The notes under the pieces were generated by a model. That model was not told where the DNA came from and ran no database searches. It was given only the letters and a program-made list of their open reading frames with translations. From assembly GCA_963778905.1 (NCBI GenBank), contig CAVZWH010000024.1:12498-76497 (forward strand): a DNA stretch of 64,000 nucleotides. Reading direction: 5' to 3'. Of this stretch, positions 2,758-58,072 are shown piece after piece. A program made the translations under genes and the position numbers. This stretch comes from Candidatus Staskawiczbacteria bacterium (lineage in GTDB: Bacteria > Patescibacteriota > Minisyncoccia > Minisyncoccales > Staskawiczbacteraceae). Within the stretch, counting starts at the first letter, position 1; each line of letters starts with the position of its first letter.

Positions 2758-4019
2758 GTTATTTTAAGCCAATATCAATATCGCTTTCGCCAAATGTTGA
2801 AAAGGACGATTTACATCTGGCCCTAAATTTGATTGTGCGGCCATGGCTTTGGAAAAAAGGGAAAGCGGTGAGTGAATTAGAAAATGAATTTAGAAATTAT
2901 CTTGGCGTAAAATATGCTTTTTCTTTTAATTCTGGAAGAAGCGCTTTTTTTGCGATTTTGAAATCCTTAAATTTAGAGAAGCAAAGCGGCGTTTTGTTGC
3001 AGGCTTTTACTTGCAATGCGGTTCCAAACCCTGTTTTATGGTCAGATTTGGCTCCCGTTTATGTTGATTGCAATAAAGATGATTTTAATATTGATGTTGA
3101 AGACTTAAAGAAAAAAATTACTCCGCAAACAAAGGTTTTAATTGTTCAGCACACATTTGGACTGCCGGCAAACATGGACGAAATAATTTCTATTGTGCGG
3201 GACCCAAAGGGTACCCCTGGTTTGATTTTAATAGAGGACTGCGCGCATTCGTTGGGAGCAGAATTTAATGGGCAAAAAGTTGGCACATTAGGAAAAGCCG
3301 CATTTTTTAGTTTTTCAAGAGACAAAGTAATTTCTTCAGTTTATGGCGGCATGGCTGTCACCAACGACGAAAAAATTGCAAAAAATTTAGAACAATTGCA
3401 GAAAGAATTTGGCCAGCCATCAATGTTCTGGATTTTTCAGCAAATTTTGCATCCTATTTTATTGGGTTATATTATTTTGCCAGTTTATAACTTTTTGGAT
3501 TTGGGAAAAATATTTTTAGTTTTTTCGCAAGTGACGCATATTTTGTCTAAAGCTGTTTCCTGGAAAGAGAAAAGGGGACAACGCCCAGATTATTTTCCAA
3601 AAGCTTTGCCAAATGCAATGGCAATTATGGCTTTGAATCAATTTAACAAATTGGAAAAATTTAATAATCACAGGCAAAAGGTTGCAAATTATTATTTTGA
3701 AGCCTTAAAAGGCGGAAATTTCAAACTGCCTAAAAAATTTGAAAACAGAAAAAATATTTTTTTGCGTTTTACTGTAAAACACCCGAAAGCTCACGAAATA
3801 ATTTATGATGCCTGGCACAAACAAAATATATTGCTTGGCGACTGGTACACAAGTGCGATTGCTCCGTTTGACACAAAAATTGAGCAAATAAAATATAAAC
3901 CGGGAAGCTGTAAAAATGCCGAGGAATTATCAAAAACTACATTAAATCTGCCAACCCATATTAATATCTCAAAAAAAAATGCAGAATGTATTATTAACTT
4001 CCTAAAAACGTGGAATTAA
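2754..4019 (+). CDS. DegT/DnrJ/EryC1/StrS-family PLP-dependent sugar aminotransferase
   Basis: DCAHSLGAEFNGQKVGTLG and SFSRDKVIS (PLP-lysine region) motifs; overlaps upstream gene by 4 nt. Confidence 0.8.
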   Translation: MSYFKPISISLSPNVEKDDLHLALNLIVRPWLWKKGKAVSELENEFRNYLGVKYAFSFNSGRSAFFAILKSLNLEKQSGVLLQAFTCNAVPNPVLWSDLAPVYVDCNKDDFNIDVEDLKKKITPQTKVLIVQHTFGLPANMDEIISIVRDPKGTPGLILIEDCAHSLGAEFNGQKVGTLGKAAFFSFSRDKVISSVYGGMAVTNDEKIAKNLEQLQKEFGQPSMFWIFQQILHPILLGYIILPVYNFLDLGKIFLVFSQVTHILSKAVSWKEKRGQRPDYFPKALPNAMAIMALNQFNKLEKFNNHRQKVANYYFEALKGGNFKLPKKFENRKNIFLRFTVKHPKAHEIIYDAWHKQNILLGDWYTSAIAPFDTKIEQIKYKPGSCKNAEELSKTTLNLPTHINISKKNAECIINFLKTWN

Positions 4020-5062
4020 AAGAAATAATAAATAAAGATGAATGGGAGGAATTTTTGTTGCAGTGTACGGAAAAAACTTTTTTGCAATCCTGGAATTGGG
4101 GCGAATTTAACAAAGCAATGCAAAGCAAGATTTGGAGATTTGGAGTTTATAACGGCAAAAGATTAATTGCCGCCGCCTTAGTTATAAAAATTTCGGCAAG
4201 AAGAGGAACTTTTTTGTTTGTTCCTCATGGGCCGGTTGTTGCTGAAGGATTAGAAGAAAAAGATAAAAAAGAAATTTTGGAATTAATTTTAATCCAATTA
4301 AGCGGAATTTCCAAAGAAGAAAAAGCAAGTTTTATAAGATTTTCTCCAATTTTCAGCAGGAGCGAGAAAAATGAAAATATTTTTATTGATTTAGGTTTTA
4401 GGTTATCTCCTATTCATATGCATCCGGAGGCCACATGGGAATTAGATATTACTTTACCGGAAGAGAAGCTGTTAATAAATATGAGAAAAACCGCCAGATA
4501 TTTAATCCGCCAGGCAGAAAAAAATCCGGATATAGAAATAGTAAAAAGCAATAATATTGAGGACTTAAAACTTTTTTGGCCCGTTTATCAAAAAACTGCA
4601 AAACGGCACCACTTCGTAGTTTTTTCTGAAAAATATTTGCAGACAGAATTTAATTGTTTTTCTAACGACAAAGAAATATCAATATTTTTGGGAAAATATA
4701 AGGGACAGGTTGTGTCCTCGGCCATTTTTGTTATTTGGCAGGGTATTTGCTTTTATCATCATTCGGGGTCTTTAACAAAGTTCAATAAAATTCCGGTTTC
4801 TTATTTATTGCAGTGGCATGCTATAAAAGAGGCGAAAAACAGAGGATGTAAAATTTATAATTTTTGGGGAATTGCTCCGGGCATAGAAACCGAATCCGAT
4901 GCGCAAAAATCATCTCATCCCTGGGCTGGCCTGTCGCTTTTTAAGATGGGATTTGGCGGATATAAAAAAGAATATGTCAAAACACAGGATTTTGTTATCT
5001 CCAAAAAATATTGGATAAATTATATAATCGAAGTTTTAAGAAAACGTAAAAGAAACCTTTAA
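4010..5062 (+). CDS. FemAB-family peptidyltransferase (peptidoglycan interpeptide bridge formation), GTG start
   Basis: FLQSWNWGEF..., two GNAT-like halves, WGIAPG motif typical of FemX/FemAB proteins. Confidence 0.7.
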   Translation: MELKEIINKDEWEEFLLQCTEKTFLQSWNWGEFNKAMQSKIWRFGVYNGKRLIAAALVIKISARRGTFLFVPHGPVVAEGLEEKDKKEILELILIQLSGISKEEKASFIRFSPIFSRSEKNENIFIDLGFRLSPIHMHPEATWELDITLPEEKLLINMRKTARYLIRQAEKNPDIEIVKSNNIEDLKLFWPVYQKTAKRHHFVVFSEKYLQTEFNCFSNDKEISIFLGKYKGQVVSSAIFVIWQGICFYHHSGSLTKFNKIPVSYLLQWHAIKEAKNRGCKIYNFWGIAPGIETESDAQKSSHPWAGLSLFKMGFGGYKKEYVKTQDFVISKKYWINYIIEVLRKRKRNL

Positions 5063-5910
5063 TGTCTTATAGAAAAAAACACGTAAAAAGCAAGATTGGC
5101 AAAATAAAGCCTAAAAAATCAATATTCAAAAGATTATGGTTTTGGATTACAATTTTATTTTTGATAATTATTTTTTCTGTTTTTTATATCGTATTTTTTT
5201 ATTCTGGATTTCAGGTAAAAAATATTTTGATTTCAGGAAACGATAATATAAAAACTCAAGAACTGCAGGATATAATTTTGAATAACGCTAATACCGGGCT
5301 GGTTGGATTTTGGAATTTGAAAATAATATCTAAAAGCATCTTTTTAGTCAACACCGACAAAATAAATAAAGAGATTTTAGAAAAGTTTCCTATAATTGAA
5401 AGTTTAAGAATAAATAAAAAATTTCCAGAGACAATAACGCTGCAGGTCGCAGAAAGAAAACCAATCGGCGTTTTTTGTAACAATGATAATCAGTGTTTTC
5501 TAATTGATGAGAACGGGATTATATTTGAGCCATTGTTAATAGCTCCAAATAATTTTACTATTGTGCGACAAACATTAGAAGACAATAATATTTTTGCCGG
5601 GGAAAAAATTGTTAATCAAAATATAATTACCGCAATTTCCAAGATTCAAAAAATCTTGAAAGATAATTTTCAGATAGACTTAAAGGAAGCGTTGATTGCA
5701 AGTTCTGTAAGGTTAAATGTTACGACAAGCGAAAATTGGCAGATTTATTTTGATTTGAGTCCGGATTCTGATATTAATTTGCAGATTACAAAACTAAATC
5801 TTTTGTTGAATGGTGAAATTTCTTCAGACAGCAGAAAAAATTTGCGATATATAGATTTAAGGCCGAAAGATAGAGCCATTATCTGCGATAATAAAACTTG
5901 CGGAGGATGA
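5062..5910 (+). CDS. ftsQ: cell division protein FtsQ/DivIB-like (POTRA domain)
   Basis: N-terminal basic region + single TM, LQVAERKPIGVF POTRA-like core; position in PG/division cluster. Confidence 0.6.
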   Translation: MSYRKKHVKSKIGKIKPKKSIFKRLWFWITILFLIIIFSVFYIVFFYSGFQVKNILISGNDNIKTQELQDIILNNANTGLVGFWNLKIISKSIFLVNTDKINKEILEKFPIIESLRINKKFPETITLQVAERKPIGVFCNNDNQCFLIDENGIIFEPLLIAPNNFTIVRQTLEDNNIFAGEKIVNQNIITAISKIQKILKDNFQIDLKEALIASSVRLNVTTSENWQIYFDLSPDSDINLQITKLNLLLNGEISSDSRKNLRYIDLRPKDRAIICDNKTCGG

Positions 5911-5912
5911 TG

Positions 5913-5940
5913 AACCGCCGATAGGCGGTTTTTTGTTTTG
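5913..5940 (+). terminator. rho-independent terminator
   Basis: aaccgcc-gata-ggcggtt hairpin followed by TTTTTGTTTTG. Confidence 0.7.
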
Positions 5941-5998
5941 CCTTCAATAAATTTGACAAACTAATATAATCAATGTATAATAAAATATATTTAAAAAT

Positions 5999-6937
5999 AT
6001 GAATTATTCTTTGCCTGAGGCAAAATTTAACGTTGAATTTTTGCAAAATTTTTTAGAAAGCAATATTTTGTTATATTGCATTATTTTGCTTTTGGCATTA
6101 AAAATTATTACCGTTGCTGTCTCTATCAATTTTCCGCAGAATATATTTTTTGCCGACATAACAAGGGCATCTCTTGAAAATTTTGCAAACCAGACACGTC
6201 AATCAGTGGGTTTGCCCTCGTTGGTAGAAAATCAAAAATTAGATCAGGCCGCCCAATCAAAGGCAGAAAATATGGTGGCAGATGATTATTTTGCCCACAC
6301 AAGCCCGCAAGGAATTACGCCGTGGTATTGGTTTTTGCAAGCCGGATATAATTATAAATATGCCGGAGAAAATTTGGCAATTGGGTTTTTTGATTCGCAA
6401 GAAGTTTATAACGCCTGGTTAAATTCTCCTTCGCATAAGGCAAATATTGTAAATCCAAATTACAAGGAAGTTGGCACGGCCGTGTTGGCTGGATTCGGCC
6501 CAAACAATACAATTGTTGTTGTTCAGGATTTTGGAAGCCAGTTGCCGGCAAAACAAGTTGCAACCCAGCCAAAACAGACTTCAGCTGTTAAACCAAGTGA
6601 ACAAACCCCGGTTGCCAATGCCGGAGAAAAAGTTTTGTCGCAATCAACAGAATCGCAAAGTACGTTGGAAACCGCCAAAACAGGCAGTTCAAATGTTTAT
6701 TCTAAAATTATGAATTCTGTTTTATACAATTATGGCGGATTGTTGCAGGACATTATTTACGGAGTTTCTTTGGTCGTGATAGGAATTTTGCTTGCGCTGA
6801 TATTTTTTAACGCAAGCATTCCTTTTGAAAATAAACTTGTATTTAGGTCGGTTCTTATTGTAATATTATTATCACTGGCAACATTATTAAACAAAGGTTT
6901 TATAGTTGCAATTATTCCGTATCAAATAATTATTTAA
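5999..6937 (+). CDS. CAP (SCP/PR-1-like) domain secreted protein with C-terminal membrane anchor
   Basis: YFAHTSPQG...GENLAIGF...WLNSPSHKANI CAP-domain signature; N- and C-terminal hydrophobic segments. Confidence 0.7.
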   Translation: MNYSLPEAKFNVEFLQNFLESNILLYCIILLLALKIITVAVSINFPQNIFFADITRASLENFANQTRQSVGLPSLVENQKLDQAAQSKAENMVADDYFAHTSPQGITPWYWFLQAGYNYKYAGENLAIGFFDSQEVYNAWLNSPSHKANIVNPNYKEVGTAVLAGFGPNNTIVVVQDFGSQLPAKQVATQPKQTSAVKPSEQTPVANAGEKVLSQSTESQSTLETAKTGSSNVYSKIMNSVLYNYGGLLQDIIYGVSLVVIGILLALIFFNASIPFENKLVFRSVLIVILLSLATLLNKGFIVAIIPYQIII

Positions 6938-6938
6938 T

Positions 6939-7643
6939 ATGAACAAAGAAAACGCAAAGAAAATTTTGAAATTGGCTGTCGCGATATATCTGGCAAGTTT
7001 TCTGATTATTAACTGGAATGATGTTTCCTGGATTTTTAATTACAAAGAGGTTGCCGGATTAGTGGAAGATTTTTTCAATCCATATCCATCTATAGATGCT
7101 TCTACCATGAACGCATATTTTTATCCAAATCATAGCCAAGATGCTACTTCTGTGGCAACAGGACAACCTGTCGCCCAATCCATTAAAAACGTAAAAACAA
7201 ATTTTACGGACCAGCAAAACACATTAGAGGTTCCCAAATTATCTCTTTTGCTTCCCATAGTTTTTGCAGACAGCACAGATAAAGAAACTATGGCAAAAGA
7301 TCTTGATTTGGGAGTGGTATTTTATCCGGGATCAGTTTATCCCGGCCAAACCGGTCAGATGATAATTTTGGGGCACTCGGCTCCTCCTGGCTGGCCGCAC
7401 ATAAAACACGACTGGGCTTTTACCGACTTAGATAAGTTAGTTCCCGGAGATACAATATTAATTGACTTAAATAACAAACAATATACATATGTAGTAAAAG
7501 AAAAAGATATTATTAAAAGAGGAGCCGATGTCCCAACAGATAGTTCGGCCATTAATAATAATGTCCTAACACTGATTAGTTGCTGGCCGCCGGGAAAAGA
7601 TTATCAAAGGATAGCAGTTTCAGCAGAGTTCCAAAACAACTAA
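6939..7643 (+). CDS. sortase family transpeptidase
   Basis: N-terminal TM, conserved His (ILGHS) and TLISCWP (TLxTC catalytic Cys) motif. Confidence 0.75.
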   Translation: MNKENAKKILKLAVAIYLASFLIINWNDVSWIFNYKEVAGLVEDFFNPYPSIDASTMNAYFYPNHSQDATSVATGQPVAQSIKNVKTNFTDQQNTLEVPKLSLLLPIVFADSTDKETMAKDLDLGVVFYPGSVYPGQTGQMIILGHSAPPGWPHIKHDWAFTDLDKLVPGDTILIDLNNKQYTYVVKEKDIIKRGADVPTDSSAINNNVLTLISCWPPGKDYQRIAVSAEFQNN

Positions 7644-7787
7644 CACCCATTGACTTATTTACTTCAATATGGTAGGGTCAATCATTATTTAGTTTTCGTC
7701 ATTAAAAGTTGATTTAGTCAACACATAGCGCAACGTCAAATAAAAAATAATTTATTCTTTTTTATTCTAATTACAGCTACGAAAAAT

Positions 7788-10700
7788 ATGAATACATTTT
7801 TGAAAGTTTTCGTAATAACCGGCCTAACTATAGTTTCGGCAATTTTGATTTCCGTAACAATGGCGCCGGCTACGGCCAGAGCATTAAGTTGTGATGGGAA
7901 TTCAGGTCCTGCTAACCAAGGAACAGTTGTTTTAGCCCAAGACAGCACAGTAACCGTGACTGTTAATTATATCTGTAATGATCTTAGGGACACGGATTAT
8001 TTCGGTTTGTCGTCTCCAACAAAAATTACTTTTGGAGAAGCCCATAGTTCATCAAACGGATCATATAACGCTGGAAATTTCAAAGCAGGTACAGAACTAA
8101 TATTTTTTCTTTATGACGCCACTCATGGCAATACATGGTACACTGGTCCTGCCTCCAGAAACTCAGATGGACAAGTCCATGCAGATTTCAGAAATGTCGG
8201 AACCAATAACTGGACTATTGGTTTTAATGATGCAGCGTACCCAGCGGACAATAATTTATTCAACGATATTGTTATAAATGTGACCGCCACCCCTTCCTGC
8301 ACCGCCAACAGCACAAAACAGTGCTCGGGCAACGCAGTATATTGGTATAATTCATGTGGAACAAAAGGAAGCCTTTTTCAGCAATGTACATCAACACAAA
8401 CATGTACCAACGCTCAATGCGTAAACAATTGTACCCCCAACACCGCTAAGCAATGCGTCGGCAACGCTGTCTACAACTTTAACTCCTGCGGAGTTCAGGG
8501 TACTCTCTACCAGCAATGTACATCAAACCAGATTTGTCAGAACGCACAGTGCGTGAATATTGCCTGTTCATCAAACACCGACTGCGGTGCCAACGCCTAC
8601 ACCGGCTCACCCTTCTGCCAAGGCAACTCAGTTTACCAAAACTACATAACATACACATGTAACAACCCGGGAACAGCAAGCTCATCTTGTTCTAATAGTA
8701 CGGCCGCACAAAAGAAAAATGATTGTACAGCTAATCAGACGTGTTCGAACGGCGCATGCGTTAATCAAACCATCACCTGCACCAGCAACACCGACTGCGG
8801 AGCTAACGCCTACACCGGCTCACCCTTCTGCCAAGGCAACAGCGTTTACCAGAATTACATCACCTACACATGTAACAACGCTGGCACATCAACCTCGTAT
8901 TGCTCCAACAACACAGCAGCACAGAAAAAGAACGATTGCACAGCTAACCAGACCTGCGCCAACGGTTCGTGCACCAACCAGAACATAACCTGCACCAGCA
9001 ACACCGACTGCGGAACAAACAGCTACACCGGCTCACCCTTCTGTCAGTCAGGTAATGTATATCAAAACTACATAACATACACCTGCACTAATCCGGGAAC
9101 AGCCAGTTCGTACTGCTCAAACAACACAGCTTCACAATTAAAAACAACCTGCGCATCAGGACAGACCTGCGCCAACGGAAGCTGCTCAAATCAAACCATC
9201 ACCTGCACCAGCAACACCGACTGCGGAGCTAACGCCTACACCGGCTCACCCTTCTGCCAAGGCAACAGCGTTTACCAGAATTACATCACCTACACATGTA
9301 ACAACGCTGGCACATCAACCTCGTATTGCTCCAACAACACAGCAGCACAGAAAAAGAACGATTGCACAGCTAACCAGACCTGCGCCAACGGTTCGTGCAC
9401 CAACCAGAACATAACCTGCACCAGCAACACCGACTGCGGAACAAACAGCTACACCGGCTCACCCTTCTGTCAGTCAGGTAATGTATATCAAAACTACATA
9501 ACATACACCTGCACTAATCCGGGAACAGCCAGTTCGTACTGCTCAAACAACACAGCTTCACAATTAAAAACAACCTGCGCATCAGGACAGACCTGCGCCA
9601 ACGGAAGCTGCTCAAATCAAACCATCACCTGCACCAGCAACACCGACTGCGGAGCTAACGCCTACACCGGCTCACCCTTCTGCCAAGGCAACAGCGTTTA
9701 CCAGAATTACATCACCTACACATGTAACAACGCTGGCACATCAACCTCGTATTGCTCCAACAACACAGCAGCACAGCTAAAAACCACCTGCACGGGAAAC
9801 CAGACATGCAGCAACGGAAGCTGTTCAACAACCTGCACCCAAAACTCATATCAGCAATGCCAAGGAAACTATCTGTATTGGTACAACTCATGCGGAGTCC
9901 AGGAAGGCCAGTCGCAGTACTGCCCCAACGGATGCTCGGGCAACTCGTGCACGAACAACAACTGCACTTACCACTCGTACGAGCAGTGCATCGGCAACAA
10001 CCTTTACTGGTACAACTCGTGCGGAGTTCAGCAGGACTTGGTTCAGTACTGCCCAAACGGATGCTCAGGGAATACGTGCACGAACAATAATATTTATGCA
10101 ACAGTTCAAACAAATTCAGCGACAAATGTAAACAATAACCAGGCAACTCTAAATGGTTATTTATATTCCGGCAGCAACAATAATAATAATTGCACTAATT
10201 ATGTTTGGTTTCAATACGGACCAACTACTTCCTATGGGACTGAAACAAATCACCAGACGCAAGGTTATTCCGGAGCATTTAGCCAAATTGTAAACTTATA
10301 CAATAATTACAATACCAACAGCTATCACTTCAGGGCCGCAGCTCAGGATTGTTCGGGCAACACGGTTTACGGCCAGGACATGACAATTTACAGCAACAAT
10401 ATTGGAACAGGAACTTTAACCGTAAACAAAACAGTCAGAGACCTCACCACTGGTGCTGGATTTGCCAGCTCAACTTCAGCCTCTCCAAGCGATATGTTGA
10501 TGTTTATGATAACTTTGCAGAATACAGGCAGCCAAGATGTTTCAAATGTGATTGCCAGAGATTATCTTCCTGCAAACCTTATTTACAATGACCAGTTGAC
10601 CGTTGCCTGCACAACCAATAACAGCAATTACAATAATTGCAATGGAAGCAATTACAATTACACTGGAAATATTTCATCTGGCGTAAACTTAAATACAATA

Positions 10701-11087
10701 TATGCCGGCCAGACAGTAACAATTACTTATCAGGTGCAGGTTGCCGGAGCTGCAAACTTTTCTTACGGATCTACAACATTGAATAACAATGTTTCTGTAT
10801 CAAGCACTAACGGTAGCAACCCTACATCATCAGCATCAGTCATTGTAACCAGAACCGCAGTTTACGGAGCCAGCACAGTTTCAACCGGATTAACCAATAA
10901 TTTTTGGGTTGATTCGTTTTTCTTGCCATTATTGCTCACCTTAATTGGTCTTTGGATGTGGAGATCTGGAGTGTTTTTCGGAGTAGAAAAATGGTTAGAC
11001 AACAAGAAAAAAATCCGCAGAGGATACAAAGCAGAAAAAGAATTGAACCACAGAATTACTCAAATACAAAAGACAGAAAGAGTATAA
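7788..11087 (+). CDS. giant cysteine-rich repeat surface protein (signal peptide, ~15 Cys-rich modules, FN3-like + DUF11-like domains, C-terminal sorting-signal-like tail)
   Basis: Signal peptide-like N-terminus; alternating 71-aa six-Cys modules (CTSNTDCGANAYTGSPFCQGNSVYQNYITYTC...); YHFRAAAQ FN3-like; TLTVNKTVRDL...DYLPANLIY DUF11-like; C-terminal STGLTNN-hydrophobic-KKKIRRGYK tail. Confidence 0.8.
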   Translation: MNTFLKVFVITGLTIVSAILISVTMAPATARALSCDGNSGPANQGTVVLAQDSTVTVTVNYICNDLRDTDYFGLSSPTKITFGEAHSSSNGSYNAGNFKAGTELIFFLYDATHGNTWYTGPASRNSDGQVHADFRNVGTNNWTIGFNDAAYPADNNLFNDIVINVTATPSCTANSTKQCSGNAVYWYNSCGTKGSLFQQCTSTQTCTNAQCVNNCTPNTAKQCVGNAVYNFNSCGVQGTLYQQCTSNQICQNAQCVNIACSSNTDCGANAYTGSPFCQGNSVYQNYITYTCNNPGTASSSCSNSTAAQKKNDCTANQTCSNGACVNQTITCTSNTDCGANAYTGSPFCQGNSVYQNYITYTCNNAGTSTSYCSNNTAAQKKNDCTANQTCANGSCTNQNITCTSNTDCGTNSYTGSPFCQSGNVYQNYITYTCTNPGTASSYCSNNTASQLKTTCASGQTCANGSCSNQTITCTSNTDCGANAYTGSPFCQGNSVYQNYITYTCNNAGTSTSYCSNNTAAQKKNDCTANQTCANGSCTNQNITCTSNTDCGTNSYTGSPFCQSGNVYQNYITYTCTNPGTASSYCSNNTASQLKTTCASGQTCANGSCSNQTITCTSNTDCGANAYTGSPFCQGNSVYQNYITYTCNNAGTSTSYCSNNTAAQLKTTCTGNQTCSNGSCSTTCTQNSYQQCQGNYLYWYNSCGVQEGQSQYCPNGCSGNSCTNNNCTYHSYEQCIGNNLYWYNSCGVQQDLVQYCPNGCSGNTCTNNNIYATVQTNSATNVNNNQATLNGYLYSGSNNNNNCTNYVWFQYGPTTSYGTETNHQTQGYSGAFSQIVNLYNNYNTNSYHFRAAAQDCSGNTVYGQDMTIYSNNIGTGTLTVNKTVRDLTTGAGFASSTSASPSDMLMFMITLQNTGSQDVSNVIARDYLPANLIYNDQLTVACTTNNSNYNNCNGSNYNYTGNISSGVNLNTIYAGQTVTITYQVQVAGAANFSYGSTTLNNNVSVSSTNGSNPTSSASVIVTRTAVYGASTVSTGLTNNFWVDSFFLPLLLTLIGLWMWRSGVFFGVEKWLDNKKKIRRGYKAEKELNHRITQIQKTERV
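8769..9775 (+). repeat. perfect 426-bp (142-aa) tandem repeat, ~2.4 copies, inside the giant surface protein gene; diverged copy at ~8563-8768
   Basis: Identical nucleotide stretches begin at 8769, 9195 and 9621 (accatcacctgcaccagcaacaccgactgcggagctaacgcc...), third copy diverges near 9775. Confidence 0.9.
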
Positions 11088-11094
11088 AGAAACA

Positions 11095-11130
11095 AAAAGC
11101 CCGCGACCAAGTCGCGGGCTTTTTGTTTTT
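11095..11130. terminator. bidirectional rho-independent terminator (serves giant gene on + and recR on -)
   Basis: agcccgcgac-caa-gtcgcgggct hairpin flanked by A-run upstream and TTTTTGTTTTT downstream. Confidence 0.75.
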
Positions 11131-11727
11131 ATTTGCGGCCTTCCAGCGCATTTTCTAAAGTTTCTTCGTCGGCGTACTCAAGTTCGCCGCCGACCGGAAT
11201 TCCTTTTGCCAGATGAGTGATTTTGAAAGCGGGCGAGGGAATTGCTTCTTTTATTGTGGATTCAACTAAAACAGATGTTGCTCTGCCTTCGGGCGTTGGA
11301 TTTAATGCAATAATTATTTCTGAAAAATTATTATCTTTTACTCTTTTTTTAGTTCTTCAATTCTTAATTGATTTATATCTTCTTTTCTCATTGTTGCCAC
11401 AGTTCCACCCAAAATGAAATAAAGTCCGTTATATTTTTTTGTGCTTTCAAGCGACAATAAATCTGTTTCTTTTTCAACTATGCAAAGCAGATTTTTATTT
11501 CTTGATGGATTTTGGCAAATAGTACATAATTTTTCACCGCCTTCAAAAGGGTCAAAACAAAGTTCGCATAATTTTATTTTGTTTTTTAATTCTATAATTG
11601 CATCTGCCAGCTCGTCTATTTTTTCTTTTGGCAGTTTCATCAAATAATAAACAAAACGGCCGGCAGTTCTGGAGCCAACCGTAGGAAATTTTCTAAAAAT
11701 ATCTTTTAGTTTTTCTATTGAATCCAT
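11129..11727 (-). CDS. recR: recombination protein RecR, interrupted by a frameshift in an A7/T7 homopolymer (11344-11350)
   Basis: N-terminal part (ORF 11338-11727: HhH, C4 zinc finger CELC...CTIC, start of Toprim LLCIVEKETD) stops at 11338; the rest of the Toprim/C-terminus (IIIALNPTPEGRATSV...ITHLAKGIPVGGELEYADEETL) continues in another frame down to the TAA at 11129. Confidence 0.7.
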
Positions 11728-13078: not shown

Positions 13079-13192
13079 AATATGTCTTTATATCAAAACT
13101 ATGAAAACTGGGCAAGGGATTGACAATGTAATAATTATATTGTATTGTTAATATATAGAACAGAAGGGAGTTTTTTTGAAAGGAGGCGACAC

Positions 13193-13429
13193 ATGTTCGC
13201 CGAACATAAAACAGAATGTGTTGTTTGGGACGGCTTTCCGGCGACAATAACCAAAGACGGGAGGCTTGTTTTTGGAGAAGACAAGGAAACCTTAGAGCAG
13301 GGCATTTCCCGCCGTTCGGCATTGATTGAATTTTTCTCCTCAAGAGGAGAAAAAGCGGAGGCGGAAAAGGTTCGCCAGATCCTCCAAAAAATGATGCGGC
13401 TGGCTGAAGATGTCGGTTCTCATCAGTAG
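13193..13429 (+). CDS. small hypothetical protein (78 aa) in a GC-rich island; strong SD (AGGAGG-N7-ATG)
   Basis: ORF with canonical RBS; codon usage GC-rich (GGC, GAC, CGC) unlike neighbours; no recognisable family. Confidence 0.25.
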   Translation: MFAEHKTECVVWDGFPATITKDGRLVFGEDKETLEQGISRRSALIEFFSSRGEKAEAEKVRQILQKMMRLAEDVGSHQ

Positions 13430-13445
13430 GTCTGCGAGCGCGGAC

Positions 13446-13493
13446 TAAAAAGCCGATTGGCAAAATCTCTAAACAGAGAAATTTCAATCGGCT
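13446..13493 (-). terminator. rho-independent terminator of cysS
   Basis: On minus strand agccgattg...caatcggct hairpin followed by TTTTT. Confidence 0.7.
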
Positions 13494-13504
13494 GTTTGTT
13501 TGCT

Positions 13505-17510: not shown

Positions 17511-19133
17511 ATGGCAGAATTACAATTAATAGATTATATACAAAAAGCAAGACTGGCTGGCCAGGCAGATGAGCAAAGCAGAGCTTTGCTTTATCAAAAT
17601 GGCTGGACAGATGCAGAAGTTAATGATGCTTTTACTACAATAGACCAGCCGCAGCCACAGGTTATGAGCCAGCCAAAAGTTGACGATCAACCGCAAGTTG
17701 TGAATCAGCTACAACCACAGGCTCAATATCAACCTCAAACAACACCAAACCAAATGCCCAAAGAAAAAAAAGGAATGCCATTGATACTGAAAATTTTTAT
17801 ATTTTTAATTATTTTAGTTGTTTTAGCTGGCGCAGGATTATTTGTTGCCGGTCAATATTTTAATGTAAATATTCCATGGAATCCTTTTGCTCTTAGCCCG
17901 CAAGCTGTTGTCAAAAACATGATGGCAAATATGAAAAATATTAAAGCTTATCACACCTCCATTCAGGTAAGCATCAGCGCCGCGAGCAGCGCCAACGCAA
18001 ATCAAACCCTTGGCAGTTTTTCTCTTGACACCGAAGGCGGCACCGACATTACAGATGCAAAAAATCCAAAAGCAGATTATACTATTTCAGTTAATCTTGG
18101 ATTGCCAGCTGCTGTGACTTCGCCAATTTTAGCTAATATGGATGTAATCGGCGTAAATAATGTTTTATATTTGAGACTCAACAGCCTTCAAATGCCAACC
18201 GAATACACAAATGGAATAAACACAGCTCAAATTTTGGGAAATTGGCTGGAAGCTGATCAAGACTCCATGAAAGCGCTTACAGCCGCAGAGTCCAGCCAAA
18301 TCGGCCAAGTAACTTTACCACCAAGCAGCGCCAGTCAAAAAATGGCTCAAGAAATTCAGAATTTGATATCATCGGAAAATTTGGTTTCTGTTGACAAGCA
18401 ATTAAGCGACCAAGTTATAAATGGTCAGGACACATATCATTATTCTATAACTATAAGCAGCGCAAAATTAAAAGATTTGGCGACCAAAATTATGAATTTG
18501 ACAACGCAAGAAGCGGCCAGCACGCAGAATAGCGGAACCTCTGCTGGCAGTTCTTTGGTTGACGGCATGGCAGGAGGCGTTGCAAATTCTTTTATAGATG
18601 CAGTTGGCGACATAAATGCAGAAATATGGATTGGCAAAAAAGATTATTTGCTTTATCAGGTTAAATTTGACAAGACGATTGATTTAAATAAACTTTTCCC
18701 GGGAGCTAACACTCAATTAGCGATAAAGGTTGATGATAATAATTCTAATTTTAATAAACCAATAACAGTCCAAGAGCCGGCAAGCTCGCAAAAAATAGAA
18801 GACTTTGTTTTACCGCTGATAAAAGTTCAGCAGATACAGTCAGATATGTCTCAAGTAGGATCTACAGCTCAAATGCTTTTTACCGCAGATCAAAGTTATT
18901 TTTCGTTATGCACGAAAGGATTGCTAAACGGCTATGATACAAAATTTGGGACTCAACTCGTAAGCAGCGCTAAAGACTTGATGAATCAAGGGGCAAAAAA
19001 TCCATTATGTTTTGCGGGTGTTAATGATTTTTGCGTATCAACTCAGCTGGCAGATGGAAGCTGGATATGCGTAGATAAAATTGGAAACACTGGAAAAACA
19101 AAATGTATTTCATTCAAAACCGTCTGCCAATAA
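17511..19133 (+). CDS. hypothetical membrane-anchored protein (Gln/Pro-rich linker, single TM, large extracytoplasmic domain ending in 6-Cys motif)
   Basis: TM at ~aa 92-115; C-terminal CFAGVNDFCVSTQLADGSWICVDKIGNTGKTKCISFKTVC. Confidence 0.45.
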   Translation: MAELQLIDYIQKARLAGQADEQSRALLYQNGWTDAEVNDAFTTIDQPQPQVMSQPKVDDQPQVVNQLQPQAQYQPQTTPNQMPKEKKGMPLILKIFIFLIILVVLAGAGLFVAGQYFNVNIPWNPFALSPQAVVKNMMANMKNIKAYHTSIQVSISAASSANANQTLGSFSLDTEGGTDITDAKNPKADYTISVNLGLPAAVTSPILANMDVIGVNNVLYLRLNSLQMPTEYTNGINTAQILGNWLEADQDSMKALTAAESSQIGQVTLPPSSASQKMAQEIQNLISSENLVSVDKQLSDQVINGQDTYHYSITISSAKLKDLATKIMNLTTQEAASTQNSGTSAGSSLVDGMAGGVANSFIDAVGDINAEIWIGKKDYLLYQVKFDKTIDLNKLFPGANTQLAIKVDDNNSNFNKPITVQEPASSQKIEDFVLPLIKVQQIQSDMSQVGSTAQMLFTADQSYFSLCTKGLLNGYDTKFGTQLVSSAKDLMNQGAKNPLCFAGVNDFCVSTQLADGSWICVDKIGNTGKTKCISFKTVCQ

Positions 19134-20107: not shown

Positions 20108-20130
20108 TATTATTCAAAAATCATAAACAT

Positions 20131-20201
20131 TCCGGGATCGTCTAATGGTAGGACACGGCCCTTTGGAGGCCGGTATCTTGGTTCGAATCCAAGTCCCGGA
20201 A
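20131..20201 (+). tRNA. tRNA-Gln (anticodon TTG)
   Basis: Cloverleaf: acceptor tccggga/tcccgga, D-arm UCGUCUAAUGGUAGGAC, anticodon stem cggcc/ggccg with loop cTTTGga, T-loop GGTTCGAATCC; CCA not encoded. Confidence 0.85.
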
Positions 20202-20210
20202 CAAATAAAA

Positions 20211-23465: not shown

Positions 23466-25037
23466 ATGAAAAACACAATTTTCAAACAAATATTTCTTTT
23501 AACTATTTGTTTTTTGCTTCTTTCCGTTGGCACAGCTGTATTTGCTCAAACCGTATCGCAAATTCAGACAAATTCAGCAACAAACATATCCAGCTACCAA
23601 GCAACCTTAAACGGATATTCATCCGGAAGTTCTTATAATACATATGTTTATTTTCAGTGGGGAACAACAAATGGCTATGGCAGCCAAACAAATCAACAAA
23701 ATATAAACTCTGCCGGCTCGTTTATCCAAGTTATCGCAGGTTTATCCGCCAACACCACTTACCATTTTAGAGCAGTTGCGCAAAACAATTACGGAACAGT
23801 TTATGGAAATGACATGACTTTTTACACAAGCGGAACCGGCACAAACACAATAACAGCCAACGCCGGACCAGATTTGTATTTGGGTTCTGGGCAAGCGGCA
23901 ACTTTGCAGGGTTCGGGATACGATCCAAACGGATATTCAATAAATTATTATTGGACATGCAATGGCGGAACTTTATCAAATTACAATATTGCTCAGCCAA
24001 CTTACACAGCTCCCTACGCAATCAATGGCAGCAGCCAAACAACTTATACTTGCACGCTTACAGCTACAAATAGTTATGGAAGTTCAAATTCAGACAGCAT
24101 GATAGTTTATGTAAATTATAATAACAACAATAACAACGGATCTTTTTATGCGCAGACAAATTCAGCAACAAATGTTCAAAATAATCAAGCAACCTTAAAC
24201 GGATATGAAGCCGGCGGCGCAACTTACAATAATTATGTTTGGTTTCAATACGGAACTGACACAAATTATGGAAACAATACAAACCAGCAGACGTTAAATT
24301 ATTCCGGCTCGTTTACCCAAAACATTGCAAACCTTTCTTACAACACCACTTACCATTTTAGAGCAGTTGCAGAAAGCAGTGGTCAAACAGTTTATGGCCA
24401 GGATATGACTTTCAACAGCAACGGCTCAAATAATAATTATTATGGCAATGGATCTTTATCAATTACAAAGCAAGTTATAAATCTTTCTTCTGGAAACTTA
24501 GCTTGGCAGTCATCAGTAAACGCAAAACCTGGCGACGTATTAAGTTTTGCCATAACTTTGCAGGCAACTGGCGGCCAGGAAATTGACAATGTTTTTGTGC
24601 GCGACAATCTGCCCGCAGACCTAATTTACAAAGGAAATATGACCGTAAATGCTTCGCAAAATTATTCGGGAAACCCTGCGTCGGGAATTAACATCGGCAC
24701 AATTCCAGCTGGCGGAATAGAAGTTATTGCTTATCAGGCGCAAGTGGCTCCGGCAGCAAATTTCATTTATGGAACAACAACATTAAGCAACAATGCAACC
24801 ATTACCAGCACAGAAGCGGGAACGCAAACCGCCAGCGCATCAGTTTTTGTGAATAATTCGTTGGTTTACGGAGCAGCAACATCTGTTTCAACCGGCTTAA
24901 CCAACAACCCAATAACAGATTCATTTTTCTTGCCAATGATTTTAATTATTTTTGGCTCTTGGTTTTATTTTTCAGGAAACGTTTACAAATTTTCCGACTG
25001 GCTTGGGTCACGGTTAGGAATTGGAATAAAGTTTTAG
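23466..25037 (+). CDS. surface protein with two FN3-like domains and DUF11-like domain; C-terminal tail homologous to that of the giant protein at 7788-11087
   Basis: Signal peptide; two TNSATN...ATLNGY...TYHFRAVA repeats; DUF11-like ITKQVINLSSG...DNLPADLIY; C-terminus VYGAATSVSTGLTNNPITDSFFLPMILIIFGSWFYF. Confidence 0.7.
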   Translation: MKNTIFKQIFLLTICFLLLSVGTAVFAQTVSQIQTNSATNISSYQATLNGYSSGSSYNTYVYFQWGTTNGYGSQTNQQNINSAGSFIQVIAGLSANTTYHFRAVAQNNYGTVYGNDMTFYTSGTGTNTITANAGPDLYLGSGQAATLQGSGYDPNGYSINYYWTCNGGTLSNYNIAQPTYTAPYAINGSSQTTYTCTLTATNSYGSSNSDSMIVYVNYNNNNNNGSFYAQTNSATNVQNNQATLNGYEAGGATYNNYVWFQYGTDTNYGNNTNQQTLNYSGSFTQNIANLSYNTTYHFRAVAESSGQTVYGQDMTFNSNGSNNNYYGNGSLSITKQVINLSSGNLAWQSSVNAKPGDVLSFAITLQATGGQEIDNVFVRDNLPADLIYKGNMTVNASQNYSGNPASGINIGTIPAGGIEVIAYQAQVAPAANFIYGTTTLSNNATITSTEAGTQTASASVFVNNSLVYGAATSVSTGLTNNPITDSFFLPMILIIFGSWFYFSGNVYKFSDWLGSRLGIGIKF

Positions 25038-57653: not shown

Positions 57654-57657
57654 AAAA

Positions 57658-57837: not shown

Positions 57838-57841
57838 ATTT

Positions 57842-57997: not shown

Positions 57998-58072
57998 ATT
58001 TTTTTATTACTTTTTAATGCTATTATGTCATTATATCGTATTTAACAATGGTTGACAACAGCAAGCTGTGGA

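What the first reader, a model, noticed from the sequence alone, without database searches (positions are those of the whole stretch)
6939..11087. Sortase adjacent to a 1099-aa cysteine-rich modular surface protein
A canonical sortase (TLISCWP catalytic Cys) sits directly upstream of a giant secreted protein. That protein is built from about 15 small disulfide-type modules with six Cys per 71 aa: CTSNTDCGANAYTGSPFCQGNSVYQNYITYTC... alternating with ...NSCGxQG..QQC modules. These are followed by an FN3-like domain, a DUF11-like domain and a C-terminal hydrophobic/basic tail. I recognise nothing like this module architecture; it looks like a lineage-specific adhesin that could mediate attachment in an episymbiotic small-genome bacterium. 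A CAP/SCP domain protein immediately upstream of the sortase adds to a probable cell-surface/host-interaction locus.
Basis: partly seen in the sequence, partly recalled or inferred. Interest (0 to 1): 0.75.

Follow-up and report, generated by a model that had tools for sequence, protein, structure and literature searches.

The report
Sortase-linked cysteine-module adhesin of CPR bacterium
An ultra-small (CPR, Staskawiczbacteria-like) bacterium encodes, within its cell-wall and division gene cluster, a CAP protein, a sortase and a 1099-aa surface fibre with a lectin-like tip, a stalk of cysteine-rich modules of an undescribed fold also found in DPANN archaea, and a conserved C-terminal anchor that is not the classical LPXTG.

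Summary
The genes are CAP (5999-6937), sortase (6939-7643) and a 1099-aa, 78-Cys protein (7788-11087). The big protein has 10 Cys modules, not about 15. Two 44-aa and two 43-aa six-Cys "A" modules flank six 71-aa "B" modules with eight Cys each (not six). A and B are homologous.

The architecture is that of a fibrillar adhesin:
- signal peptide
- Cys-module stalk
- FN3-like domain
- CLIPPER (DUF11) domain
- near-invariant C-terminal signal VYGAxx[IV]S-T-G-LTNN...DSFFLP-TM

The gene order FemAB-FtsQ-CAP-sortase-substrate is conserved across Staskawiczbacteria. A second protein in the window (23466-25037) carries the same signal.

Best reading: a Sec-exported, disulfide-stapled adhesin that the adjacent sortase processes at a non-LPXTG motif. 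Surface location is well supported. Sortase cleavage and glycan binding are inferred. I rate it a new variant of a known kind, of moderate-to-good interest.

The parts
4010..5062 (+). FemAB-family peptidyltransferase (context). It would build the peptidoglycan cross-bridge that a sortase uses as nucleophile.
   Evidence: Pfam FemAB 7.5e-38. Conserved directly upstream of FtsQ-CAP-sortase in all 8 comparison loci.
5062..5910 (+). FtsQ/DivIB (context); followed by a terminator-like hairpin at 5912-5931.
   Evidence: POTRA_1 5.6e-10 and FtsQ_DivIB_C; terminator scan.
5953..5981 (+). Perfect sigma-70 consensus promoter (TTGACA-17-TATAAT, 12/12) just upstream of the CAP gene. Likely start of a CAP-sortase-adhesin transcript.
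   Evidence: This is a consensus match only; function is inferred.
5999..6937 (+). TM-anchored CAP/YkwD-like protein (312 aa). Its stop is 1 nt before the sortase start.
   Evidence: Pfam CAP 6.4e-16. NCBIfam YkwD 2.1e-27 and DalA 1.8e-12, both below cutoff. Syntenic in 7 of 8 comparison loci.
6939..7643 (+). Membrane-anchored sortase (234 aa) with the His (LGHSAPPGWP), Cys (SCWPPG) and Arg (QRI) catalytic residues.
   Evidence: Pfam Sortase 9.3e-19. No class A-F model reaches its cutoff. The catalytic motifs are at least 99% conserved in 120 homologs of 68-80% identity.
7788..7880 (+). Signal peptide of the 1099-aa protein (aa 1-31, ...ATARA|LS).
   Evidence: Sequence features only; no predictor was run.
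7881..8297 (+). Head domain (aa 32-170): PA-IIL/LecB-like (DUF4114) beta-sandwich with a partly degenerate Ca2+/sugar loop (FNDAAYPADNNLFNDIV).
8298..8564 (+). Two short 'A' Cys modules (aa 171-259; 44 aa; C-x7-C-x10-C-x9-C-x5-C-x4-C).
   Evidence: Homologous to B modules (hhalign probability 93%, E 3.4e-7).
8565..9833 (+). Six long 'B' Cys modules (aa 260-682; 71-aa period; 8 Cys each). All-beta hairpin fold with no PDB relative.
8763..9776 (+). 426-bp unit (two B modules) repeated 2.4 times at 100% identity: a recent tandem expansion. The copy number depends on assembly quality.
   Evidence: TRF. B2=B4 and B3=B5 are identical at the DNA level.
9834..10082 (+). Two short A' Cys modules (aa 683-765; 43 aa; C-x7-C-x10-C-x9-C-x3-C-x4-C).
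10083..10412 (+). FN3-like domain (aa 766-875), also present twice in the second substrate.
   Evidence: The profile hits titin, neogenin, contactin and DCC FN3 domains. Pfam fn3 hits are sub-threshold only.
10413..10847 (+). CLIPPER (DUF11) CnaA-like stalk domain (aa 876-1020). Candidate isopeptide triad K882 / D926 / N1004-1006.
   Evidence: Pfam DUF11 5.3e-6, above cutoff. TIGR01451. Function of the domain from PMC12617251. Conservation of the triad positions.
10848..11087 (+). C-terminal sorting/anchor region (aa 1021-1099): TRTAVYGASTVS-T1033-G1034-LTNNFWVDSFFLP + TM + RSG + conserved basic amphipathic tail. The proposed sortase site is T|G at nt 10884-10889.
   Evidence: Near-invariant in 86 of 120 homologs. 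No curated model matches it. Present in 46 GTDB loci.
11090..11128 (.). Strong bidirectional terminator hairpin (18-bp stem, 9 GC pairs) right after the stop codon.
   Evidence: The same hairpin appears as sub-threshold 'Thr_leader' hits on both strands.
23466..25037 (+). Second protein with the same type-1 signal (523 aa): signal peptide, 2 FN3-like domains, PKD-like region, DUF11-like region, ...LVYGAATSVSTGLTNNPITDSFFLP-TM. It has no Cys modules.

Best explanation
The locus encodes a surface fibre (fibrillar adhesin) and the enzyme that processes it. It belongs to a Ca. Staskawiczbacteria-like CPR bacterium.

Proposed steps:
1. CAP, sortase and the 1099-aa protein are probably transcribed together, from a consensus promoter at 5953 to a strong terminator at 11090.
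2. The protein is exported by Sec. Its 74 module cysteines are oxidised to disulfides, three per A module and four per B module. This produces a stiff, protease-resistant stalk of ten small beta-hairpin modules.
3. An FN3-like domain and an isopeptide-type CLIPPER domain extend the stalk.
4. The stalk presents an N-terminal PA-IIL/LecB-like lectin-fold head away from the cell. Related genomes swap this head for other heads.
5. The C-terminal signal (VYGAxx[IV]S-T-G-LTNN-x3-DSFFLP, then a TM helix and basic residues) holds the precursor in the membrane.
6. The adjacent membrane-bound sortase most likely cleaves between Thr1033 and Gly1034. It then transfers the protein to the peptidoglycan cross-bridge made by the FemAB enzyme encoded two genes upstream of the CAP gene (FemAB-FtsQ-CAP-sortase).

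Shown here: the domain architecture, the conservation of the signal, the conserved gene order, intact sortase catalytic residues, the confident module fold without known relatives, and the lectin fold of the head.

Inferred: disulfide formation, sortase cleavage at TG, wall attachment, glycan or host binding, and co-transcription.
For: Architecture:
- Searches give signal peptide + head + repeated stalk + CLIPPER + anchor. This is the layout described for fibrillar adhesins in PMC12617251.

Head:
- DUF4114 is already linked to PA-IIL lectins and to a pilus-tip adhesin (PMC9109919).
- Heads are swapped between syntenic orthologs, and the B-module count varies from 0 to 24 across homologs and related loci.

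Signal:
- T, G, T and P are invariant in 86 of 86 sequences; D-S-F in 85 of 86.
- It is shared by a second, unrelated cargo in the window and by module-free cargos in other genomes. That is how sorting signals behave.
- The T-G lies about 12 residues after the last CLIPPER strand and just before a TM helix plus Arg/Lys, matching LPXTG signal geometry.

Sortase link:
- The sortase is immediately upstream in 4 of 4 ortholog loci.
- It is within 2.5 kb upstream, on the same strand, in 19 of 29 informative GTDB loci chosen by the signal alone.
- 4 of 4 loci chosen by the sortase alone have a secreted, C-terminally TM-anchored protein directly downstream.
- The His/Cys/Arg motifs are conserved in 120 homologs.
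- FemAB, Mur ligases, FtsW and MurG in the same cluster show that a peptidoglycan wall is made.

Oxidative folding:
- CPR genomes are reported to be enriched in MdbA-like/VKOR pairs for oxidative folding.
Against: - There is no experimental evidence for cleavage.
- The motif is not LPXTG or LAXTG, and the sortase fits no characterised class.
- The 35-aa tail after the TM helix (GxEKWxDNKKKxRRGYKAEKELxxRIxxI) is unusually long and well conserved for a segment that would be discarded. That hints at a retained membrane anchor or a second function.
- In three sortase-selected genomes the downstream protein carries a different anchor (type 2...SGFWEFLKRWYLWI...FRRLS) without a clear TG.
- Type 2 is sortase-adjacent in only 2 of about 19 informative metagenome loci.
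- Both anchor types occur on the same contig (L004/L124).
- The conserved gene order could reflect shared ancestry of closely related genomes, not function.
- In this particular protein the head's Ca2+/sugar loop has lost two of the five acidic or amide ligands (E to N, D to N, plus a 1-aa insertion). Glycan binding may therefore be altered or lost.
- No MdbA or VKOR gene lies in the window.
Confidence: 0.6

Rival explanations
1. The protein is a permanently membrane-anchored surface protein and is not a sortase substrate. On this view the conserved C-terminal region is a TM anchor plus a cytoplasmic amphipathic helix that docks to a division or cell-wall partner. The sortase sits next to it only because both genes belong to a conserved dcw-type cluster.
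For: - The tail after the TM helix is long and strongly conserved.
- Conserved polar residues (D-S) and a Pro lie inside the hydrophobic segment.
- The locus is embedded between FtsQ and, in some genomes, MurD/FtsW/MurG.
- The type-2 anchor on sister proteins looks like a plain tail anchor and is rarely sortase-adjacent.
Against: - The invariant T-G sits in the right place relative to the TM helix.
- The same extracellular and TM core is kept on a second cargo whose cytoplasmic tail is unrelated. So the tail is not the conserved functional unit across substrates.
- The catalytically intact sortase otherwise has no candidate substrate: no LPXTG or LAXTG occurs in a real ORF of the window.
Confidence: 0.22
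2. The protein is a structural envelope component, such as a wall-spanning spacer or an S-layer-like fibril needed for cell-envelope integrity or division. It would then not be an adhesin for a host cell.
For: - It holds a constant position inside the cell-wall/division cluster across Staskawiczbacteria.
- A perfect consensus promoter suggests high expression.
- The lectin Ca2+ site is degenerate in this protein.
- The neighbouring CAP protein resembles divisome-associated or YkwD-type proteins.
Against: - Heads are swapped between orthologous loci.
- Stalk length varies 0-24 modules, with very recent duplications.
- The substrate evolves quickly (45-60% identity) next to a slowly evolving sortase (68-80%).
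- These are hallmarks of proteins facing a variable external partner, not of housekeeping structure.
Confidence: 0.15
3. The sortase polymerises the protein into a covalent pilus, acting as a class C-type pilin polymerase.
For: - Partial similarity to class C and D sortase models.
- CnaA-like (CLIPPER) domains are typical of Gram-positive pilins.
Against: - Scores are far below every class cutoff.
- Only one sortase and no pilin-motif partner or minor pilins are in the locus.
- The architecture, with one head and a repeat stalk, is that of a monomeric fibrillar adhesin.
Confidence: 0.03
4. The Cys modules are metal-binding or redox units. Archaeal homologs are annotated 'putative metal-binding motif protein'.
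For: Names and PF11617 hits on the archaeal homologs.
Against: - PF11617 does not hit this protein or its modules. In the archaeal proteins it marks a different repeat.
- Cys numbers are even (6 or 8) with invariant spacing.
- The protein is extracellular, and AF2 gives a compact beta fold at pLDDT 95.8. All of this fits disulfides.
Confidence: 0.03

Closest known systems
Gram-positive sortase-anchored fibrillar adhesins (MSCRAMM/CnaA-CnaB type, LPXTG; housekeeping sortase A/E)
   Same: - Signal peptide, distal binding domain, repeated stalk including an isopeptide-type CnaA-like (CLIPPER) domain.
- C-terminal tripartite signal (short motif ending in T-G, TM helix, basic residues).
- Adjacent membrane sortase with the His-Cys-Arg triad.
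- A FemAB-type cross-bridge enzyme is present.
   Different: - The motif is [IV]-S-T-G-L-T-N-N, with a second conserved block DSFFLP inside the TM segment, not LPXTG or LAXTG.
- The tail is long and conserved.
- The sortase fits no class A-F model.
- The stalk is built mainly from disulfide-rich mini-modules and not from Ig-like repeats.
- The host organism is a CPR bacterium.
PA-IIL/LecB family of Ca2+-dependent fucose/mannose lectins (Pfam DUF4114), including the DUF4114 tip of M. xanthus PilY1.1
   Same: - The family consensus keeps the E-D...D-x-D-Y-N-D Ca2+/sugar loop.
- The domain sits at the distal tip of a surface appendage, as in PilY1.1.
   Different: - It is a domain of a large protein, not a free tetramer.
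- The C-terminal Gly carboxylate that LecB uses for Ca2+ binding cannot be used here.
- In this protein the loop is degenerate (N-D...D-N-N-L-F-N-D).
- The Pfam score is below threshold.
Large cysteine-rich extracellular proteins of CPR bacteria (described for Peregrinibacteria, PMC4736985) and 'putative metal-binding motif' giant proteins of Pacearchaeota
   Same: - Large, secreted, about 7-10% Cys.
- Proposed to mediate attachment in episymbionts.
- Strain-variable.
- The Pacearchaeota proteins contain the very same B module.
   Different: - The earlier description was compositional and defined no module, fold, anchor or sortase link.
- The archaeal proteins lack the CPR C-terminal signals and carry other repeats (PF11617, FG-GAP).
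Small disulfide-rich extracellular modules (EGF, Dickkopf_N, RGM_N, NGF-type cystine knot)
   Same: They are 40-70-aa extracellular modules stabilised by 3-4 disulfides, arranged in tandem as rigid spacers.
   Different: - No significant sequence match. Best hits are Dickkopf_N E 0.06, RGM_N 0.0027 and NGF 0.06, all below cutoffs.
- The Cys spacing is distinct.

Membership tests
Sortase (Pfam PF04203) | Sortase domain scoring above the gathering threshold | tested here: met
   67.8 bits against a cutoff of 26.6, E 9.3e-19.
Sortase (Pfam PF04203) | Catalytic His, Cys (TLxTC-like) and Arg residues | tested here: met
   LGHSAPPGWP, TLISCWPPG and QRIAV are at least 99% conserved in 120 homologs.
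Sortase classes A-F (NCBIfam class models) | Score at or above the class-specific cutoff | tested here: not met
   Classes C, D, E and F score 23-55 bits against cutoffs of 135-166. TIGR01076 scores 38.4 against 39.35. NCBI nevertheless labels relatives 'class E sortase'.
LPXTG-type cell-wall sorting signal | LPXTG (or LAXTG/LPXTA) pentapeptide | tested here: not met
   No such motif occurs in any real ORF of the window. The conserved motif is [ST][IV]STG.
LPXTG-type cell-wall sorting signal | Motif followed by a hydrophobic TM segment and a positively charged tail at the extreme C-terminus | tested here: met
   TG + LTNN + FWVDSFFLPLLLTLIGLWMW + RSG...KKKIRR. The tail is atypically long at 45 aa.
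LPXTG-type cell-wall sorting signal | Cleavage by sortase and linkage to peptidoglycan | not testable with these tools
   Requires biochemistry or proteomics.
CLIPPER / DUF11 (PF01345) | Domain scoring above the gathering threshold | tested here: met
   27.2 bits against 24.6. TIGR01451 scores 26.2 against 24.
CLIPPER / DUF11 (PF01345) | Lys-Asn isopeptide with a catalytic Asp | tested here: inconclusive
   Candidates K882, D926 and N1004-1006 are present. D926 is 94% conserved; the Lys and Asn positions each fall in the 60-85% band. No alignment to 9IFR was obtained. The paper notes that not all DUF11 domains have the bond.
PA-IIL/LecB-like lectin (DUF4114, PF13448) | Sequence match above the Pfam threshold | tested here: not met
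   23.2 bits against a cutoff of 27 for this protein. Homologous heads in P0003, P0004 and P0005 carry precomputed PF13448 hits.
PA-IIL/LecB-like lectin (DUF4114, PF13448) | PA-IIL beta-sandwich fold | tested here: met
   [not shown]
PA-IIL/LecB-like lectin (DUF4114, PF13448) | Ca2+/sugar-binding loop E-D...D-x-D-Y-N-D | tested here: inconclusive
   The loop is intact in five homologous heads but reads N-D...D-N-N-L-F-N-D here. Three of five ligands are kept and there is a 1-aa insertion.
Fibronectin type III | Recognisable FN3 sequence profile | tested here: inconclusive
   The family profile hits FN3 domains of titin (7e-9), neogenin, contactin and DCC. Pfam fn3 hits are sub-threshold only, best E 0.039. 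No structure was predicted for this domain.
Known Cys-rich module families (EGF, EB, Dickkopf_N, RGM_N, MopE PF11617, MXAN_6577, NGF knot) | Significant sequence or fold match | tested here: not met
   [not shown]
CAP superfamily (PF00188) | CAP domain scoring above threshold | tested here: met
   59.7 bits against 21.1.
Fibrillar adhesin (architectural class) | Signal peptide + distal binding domain + tandem stalk repeats + surface anchor | tested here: met
   Actual adhesion was not tested.

The most novel reading that the evidence does not exclude
Two linked novelties.

(1) The 65-71-aa eight-Cys module and its six-Cys short form make up an undescribed extracellular domain family with a new fold. 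CPR bacteria and DPANN archaea, the two radiations of ultra-small episymbionts, share it across domains. This implies inter-domain exchange of a surface-fibre building block.

(2) Staskawiczbacteria use an unclassified sortase that recognises a new sorting signal, VYGAxx[IV]S-T|G-LTNN...DSFFLP, in place of LPXTG. The dedicated substrate is hard-wired into the cell-division/wall operon.
Probability: 0.45. Interest if true: 0.72.

Novelty: new variant of a known kind. Interest (0 to 1): 0.58.

Why it matters
Almost nothing is known about how non-Saccharibacteria CPR cells build their surface or attach to partners. This locus offers three things.

- **A candidate attachment fibre that can be tested.** It has a recognisable lectin-type tip.
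- **A candidate new sortase recognition motif.** It could be used to list the surface proteome of a whole CPR lineage from sequence alone, and possibly as a new sortase-tagging specificity.
- **A well-defined, confidently folding disulfide module absent from Pfam and the PDB.** It links the surface proteins of CPR bacteria and DPANN archaea, and so bears on gene exchange between the two episymbiotic radiations.

Defining the module and the signal as profile models would annotate well over a thousand currently 'hypothetical' giant proteins.

Tried and rejected
- **Locating the exact contig:** The look-up of encoding contigs had no record for P0001. Cluster look-ups gave no names. The organism was therefore inferred from named relatives only.
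- **AFDB fold search:** the library was not available. Distribution was obtained from sequence profiles.
- **Disulfide connectivity:** model coordinates are not exposed, so nothing could be read off. Only an inference is possible from the A-versus-B comparison. The two B-specific Cys, one in the N-terminal arm and C5 in the insert, probably pair with each other.
- **Profile search of the 5.8-billion-protein set with the 48-aa type-1 signal:** it returned only 4 short fragments and was uninformative.
- **Alignment of the CLIPPER region to 9IFR by sequence:** no hit.
- **Sortase/anchor co-evolution:** the three type-2-linked sortases form a clade inside the type-1-linked ones. With n = 3 this cannot be separated from organism phylogeny.
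- **Is the type-2 anchor also a sortase signal?** It is sortase-adjacent in only 2 of about 19 informative metagenome loci. I therefore do not claim it as a sortase signal.
- **Is high GC3 a general property of the modules (selection on codons)?** Rejected. Of 23 orthologs and paralogs, only the closest relative shares it, and only partly.
- **Disulfide machinery next to the locus:** no MdbA or VKOR lies in the window. The only thioredoxin is a cytoplasmic Trx-FTR fusion.
- **Rfam:** only 3 tRNAs pass the gathering score. The 'Thr_leader' hits at 11066-11161 are the terminator hairpin.

Full report
**1. What is in the sequence**

The + strand carries, in order:
- a FemAB-family gene (4010-5062)
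- ftsQ (5062-5910)
- a CAP-domain gene (5999-6937)
- a sortase gene (6939-7643)
- a 1099-codon gene (7788-11087)

recR and dnaB follow, converging on the - strand. Pfam places the sortase (67.8 bits) and CAP (59.7 bits) well above threshold. The big protein has 78 Cys (7.1%) and is rich in N, T and S. Neighbouring proteins have 1-4 Cys each.

A 12/12 sigma-70 consensus promoter lies at 5953-5981, just after a terminator-like hairpin that closes ftsQ. An 18-bp-stem bidirectional terminator (11090-11128) follows the big gene's stop codon. The CAP stop and the sortase start are 1 nt apart. CAP, sortase and the big gene therefore look like one transcription unit. This is an inference from consensus matches.

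**2. Anatomy of the 1099-aa protein**

- **aa 1-31:** Sec-type signal peptide (basic n-region, 20 hydrophobic residues, ATARA|LS). I judged this by eye.
- **aa 32-170:** head domain.
- **aa 171-259:** two 44-aa 'A' modules with six Cys (C-x7-C-x10-C-x9-C-x5-C-x4-C).
- **aa 260-682:** six 71-aa-period 'B' modules with eight Cys (C-x5-C-x10-C-x13-C-x9-C-x11-C-x5-C-x4-C).
- **aa 683-765:** two 43-aa A' modules with six Cys.
- **aa 766-875:** FN3-like domain.
- **aa 876-1020:** DUF11 domain.
- **aa 1021-1099:** C-terminal signal.

There are about 10 modules, not 15. The 71-aa module has eight Cys, not six. The short modules flank the long ones and do not alternate with them.

A and B are two forms of one module. 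Profile-profile comparison gives 93% probability and E 3.4e-7. A lacks B's N-terminal CxxxxxCG arm and a 12-residue insert that carries one Cys.

B2=B4 and B3=B5 are identical at the DNA level. They form a 426-bp unit repeated 2.4 times at 100% identity (8763-9776). This is a very recent expansion.

**3. The module is a real, uncurated family with no known fold relative**

No Pfam or NCBIfam model reaches significance on the whole protein or on isolated modules. The best hits are Dickkopf_N (E 0.06) and RGM_N (0.0027), both below their cutoffs.

I mined 381 unique B instances from homologs. Of these, 320 have exactly the same Cys spacing.

A 67-sequence alignment gave an AlphaFold2 model with mean pLDDT 95.8. 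It is all-beta and made of long hairpins (E14-22, E25-36, E44-56, E61-64, E67-70). Comparisons with solved structures found nothing:
- Foldseek against the PDB: nothing better than E 2.6.
- Sequence profile against PDB chains: best E 0.06, to NGF.

Within the limits of a predicted model, the fold has no recognisable solved relative. AFDB could not be searched.

**4. The module is not lineage-specific**

A search with the whole protein found 231 homologs under a candidate cap. The named ones come from Ca. Staskawiczbacteria and Doudnabacteria, which are CPR bacteria. Others come from Pacearchaeota and Nanoarchaeota, which are DPANN archaea.

An exhaustive profile search of 1.84 billion cluster representatives found the B module in 1,681 proteins at E <= 1e-3 and 1,019 at E <= 1e-10. 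Some proteins carry up to 29 copies.

Of the 125 representatives not seen before, 122 lack the CPR-type C-terminal anchors. Many begin like the Pacearchaeota proteins. One is NCBI VVB77927.1 '[uncultured archaeon]'. Another sits next to replication factor C genes, which are an archaeal hallmark.

CPR bacteria and DPANN archaea therefore share the module, and most of its sequence diversity appears to be archaeal. Few of the representatives carry names, so that last statement rests on a handful of anchors plus sequence resemblance.

**5. The other domains**

Pfam DUF4114 scores 23.2 bits, just under its cutoff of 27. Homologous heads carry precomputed DUF4114 hits.

The literature already links DUF4114 to PA-IIL-type lectins and to the Ca2+-dependent tip domain of a Myxococcus pilus adhesin (PMC9109919).

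The family consensus keeps LecB's Ca2+/sugar loop: FED..GGD.DYND against LecB EDGTDNDYND. In the window protein it reads FNDAAYPADNNLFND. Two acidic ligands have become Asn and one residue is inserted. I had typed the LecB sequence from memory and verified it against PDB 1OUR/1GZT. The lectin fold is therefore supported. Ca2+-dependent sugar binding by this particular head is doubtful.

*FN3-like domain.* A 13-sequence profile hits FN3 domains of titin (7e-9), neogenin, contactin and DCC. Pfam fn3 hits are sub-threshold only.

*DUF11.* This domain is now called CLIPPER. It is a CnaA-like stalk domain of fibrillar adhesins, with an intramolecular Lys-Asn isopeptide bond in many members (PMC12617251). 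Candidate residues K882, D926 and N1004-1006 are present, and D926 is 94% conserved. I could not verify the bond.

**6. The C-terminal signal**

Eighty-six of the 120 best homologs end with an almost invariant stretch of about 80 aa: TRtAVYGAst[IV]-S-T-G-L-T-N-N-FWv-D-S-F-f-L-P-L...W.[RK]SG.FFGIEKW.DNKKK.RRGYKAEKEL..RI..I. T, G, T and P are invariant in 86 of 86. D-S-F is kept in 85 of 86. No curated model covers it.

No LPXTG or LAXTG occurs in any genuine ORF of the window.

A second, otherwise different protein in the window has the same core...LVYGAATSVSTGLTNNPITDSFFLPMILIIFGSWFYFSG, but an unrelated tail. It lies at 23466-25037 and has two FN3-like domains plus PKD-like and DUF11-like regions, with no Cys modules.

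A scan of 185,579 GTDB species genomes with the pattern TGLTNN[FL][WL]xD returned 46 loci. Nearly all come from Ca. Staskawiczbacteria or other Patescibacteria MAGs. Several genomes have 2-3 copies, and the cargos range from module-free proteins to a 2,161-aa protein with 24 B modules. This scan used a single narrow pattern, so the taxonomic range is a lower bound.

One conserved C-terminal cassette on diverse cargos is how sorting signals behave.

**7. The link to the sortase**

*Gene order.*
- In four other contigs the order Mur ligase-DegT-FemAB-FtsQ-(CAP)-sortase-Cys-module protein-RecR-DnaB is conserved. The big proteins there are 45-60% identical to ours.
- Among the GTDB loci chosen only by the signal, 29 had at least 3 kb of upstream sequence or a sortase in view. 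In 19 of them the sortase lies within 2.5 kb upstream on the same strand. In 18 of those 19 the adjacent substrate has Cys modules.
- Starting instead from four sortase homologs, all four loci show FemAB-FtsQ-CAP-sortase followed by a secreted protein with a C-terminal TM anchor. In three, the cluster continues into MurL/MurD-FtsW-MurG. The pair is thus embedded in the division/cell-wall cluster.

*The enzyme.* The sortase is far more conserved than its substrate (68-80% identity across 120 clusters). The LGHSAPPGWP, SCWPPG and QRI motifs are invariant. It reaches no class A-F cutoff in NCBIfam, although NCBI labels relatives 'class E sortase'.

*Complication.* In three of the four sortase-selected loci the downstream Cys-module protein ends with a different anchor, which I call type 2...QSDSxSINF...[ST]GFW[DE]FLK[KR]WYLWI...FRRLSSE. 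A metagenome scan with that anchor gave 80 loci. About 19 of the ORFs caught by my type-2 pattern were informative, and only 2 had an upstream sortase. Type-1 and type-2 proteins also occur on the same contig (L004 and L124). The three type-2-linked sortases cluster together in a neighbour-joining tree. That cannot be separated from organism phylogeny. I therefore propose only type 1 as the sortase signal, and with moderate confidence.

**8. Mechanism proposed**

The protein is exported by Sec and undergoes oxidative folding. CPR genomes are reported to be enriched in MdbA-like/VKOR pairs (10.1101/335083), but none lies in this window.

The result would be a stiff stalk of ten disulfide-stapled hairpin modules plus FN3 and CLIPPER. 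It displays a lectin-fold head away from the cell.

The type-1 signal then retains the precursor in the membrane. The sortase cleaves at T1033|G1034 and transfers the protein to the FemAB-built cross-bridge.

Three observations argue for an outward-facing, partner-binding role over a purely structural one:
- Heads are swapped between syntenic orthologs.
- B-module counts range from 0 to 24 across homologs and related loci.
- The substrate evolves much faster than the sortase.

Arguing against simple cleavage is the long, conserved cytoplasmic tail. From general knowledge, the C-peptides left behind by sortase A can act as signals in streptococci. That would reconcile a conserved tail with cleavage, but it is speculation here.

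**9. Organism**

The closest named sortases and signals are from Ca. Staskawiczbacteria. One example is L022, whose signal is 92% identical to ours, with an adjacent sortase that is sister to the window's in the NJ tree. This group belongs to the Parcubacteria group within the Patescibacteria/CPR. The window's GC content of about 34% fits.

**10. Comparison with what is known, and novelty**

Known elements:
- the kind of system: a sortase with a fibrillar adhesin
- the CAP family, noted as nearly CPR-specific
- CLIPPER
- the DUF4114 lectin link
- the descriptive notion of large Cys-rich CPR surface proteins (PMC4736985)

Elements I did not find in the curated libraries, or in the few papers my searches returned:
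- the definition of the 8-Cys/6-Cys module as a domain family with a confident and apparently new fold
- its sharing between CPR and DPANN
- the non-LPXTG type-1 signal tied to an unclassified sortase inside the dcw cluster

I rate this a new variant of a known kind.

**11. Caveats**

- All structural statements rest on AF2 models.
- The taxonomy of most module-bearing proteins is unknown.
- The adjacency statistics come from related genomes and are not independent.
- recR next door is frameshifted at a homopolymer. The assembly may therefore contain indel errors, and the exact number of identical B modules should be checked against reads.

Noticed in passing
window 8298-10082 (Cys-module part of the gene 7788-11087): Synonymous codon usage differs sharply from the rest of the same gene and from the neighbouring genes. 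GC3 is 0.49-0.75 here against 0.28-0.38 elsewhere. AAC is 80% against 31%, TAC 83% against 28%, ACC 58% against 19%. Among 23 orthologs and paralogs, only the closest relative (L022) shares this, and only partly. Candidate causes are import of the array from a higher-GC donor, GC-biased gene conversion in a recombining repeat, or local codon selection. The cause is unresolved.
   Followed up: partly
window 23466-25037 (+), with 21490-23433 (+): A second protein carries the type-1 C-terminal signal (2 FN3-like domains, PKD-like and DUF11-like regions, no Cys modules). It lies directly downstream of an LtaS-type sulfatase/phosphoglycerol-transferase-like membrane protein (Pfam Sulfatase 2.3e-42).
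   Followed up: partly
L051, L053, L054 (genes downstream of the sortase); L056-L135: A second conserved C-terminal anchor class (type 2) occurs on Cys-module proteins of the same lineage: ...QSDSxSINF...[ST]GFW[DE]FLK[KR]WYLWI...FRRLSSE. These proteins are mostly 300-500 aa with 1-3 A modules. They are rarely sortase-adjacent and co-occur with type-1 proteins on the same contigs (L004/L124). The function and processing of this anchor are unknown.
   Followed up: partly
window 11088-11727 (-): recR is split by a frameshift. Residues 1-129 are in one frame (11338-11727). The Toprim/C-terminal half (...NNFSEIIIALNPTPEGRATS...LEYADEETLENALEGRK) continues in another frame after an A5 homopolymer (TCTGAAAAATT). 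It is either a pseudogene or a long-read indel error. Intact RecR in related loci is about 200 aa.
   Followed up: partly
window 51423-61322: A probable integrated mobile element lies next to a tRNA gene (51423-51494). On the - strand it has a large serine recombinase (51456-52967), type III restriction Res (52964-55627) and Mod methylase (55599-57653) subunits, a tyrosine integrase (58073-59203) and an unannotated 454-aa ORF. GC skew flips sign over exactly this stretch (about 52-62 kb).
   Followed up: partly
window 20869-21456 (+): A single 195-aa ORF fuses a thioredoxin domain (WCEPC) to a ferredoxin-thioredoxin reductase catalytic beta-chain domain (Pfam Thioredoxin 1.8e-28 + FeThRed_B 1.7e-22). 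It has no signal peptide, so it is cytoplasmic and not the oxidase for the Cys-rich protein.
   Followed up: no
window 13079-13504: This is a 425-bp gap between dnaB and cysS containing only implausible ORFs. No Rfam family matched at E <= 0.1. Related loci carry small unannotated ORFs at the same place.
   Followed up: partly
L011 3761-10243 (Ca. Staskawiczbacteria MFD01223.bin.2.87): A 2,161-aa type-1-signal protein has 24 tandem B modules and 208 Cys and is not next to the sortase. The archaeal record-holder P0243 (VVB77927.1) has 29 modules in 2,594 aa.
   Followed up: no
window 19103-20852 (+): A PGA_cap (CapA-like capsule synthesis, 4.4e-60) gene and a PAP2_C-domain gene lie between a tRNA and the Trx fusion. 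They are further envelope-related genes in the window.
   Followed up: no
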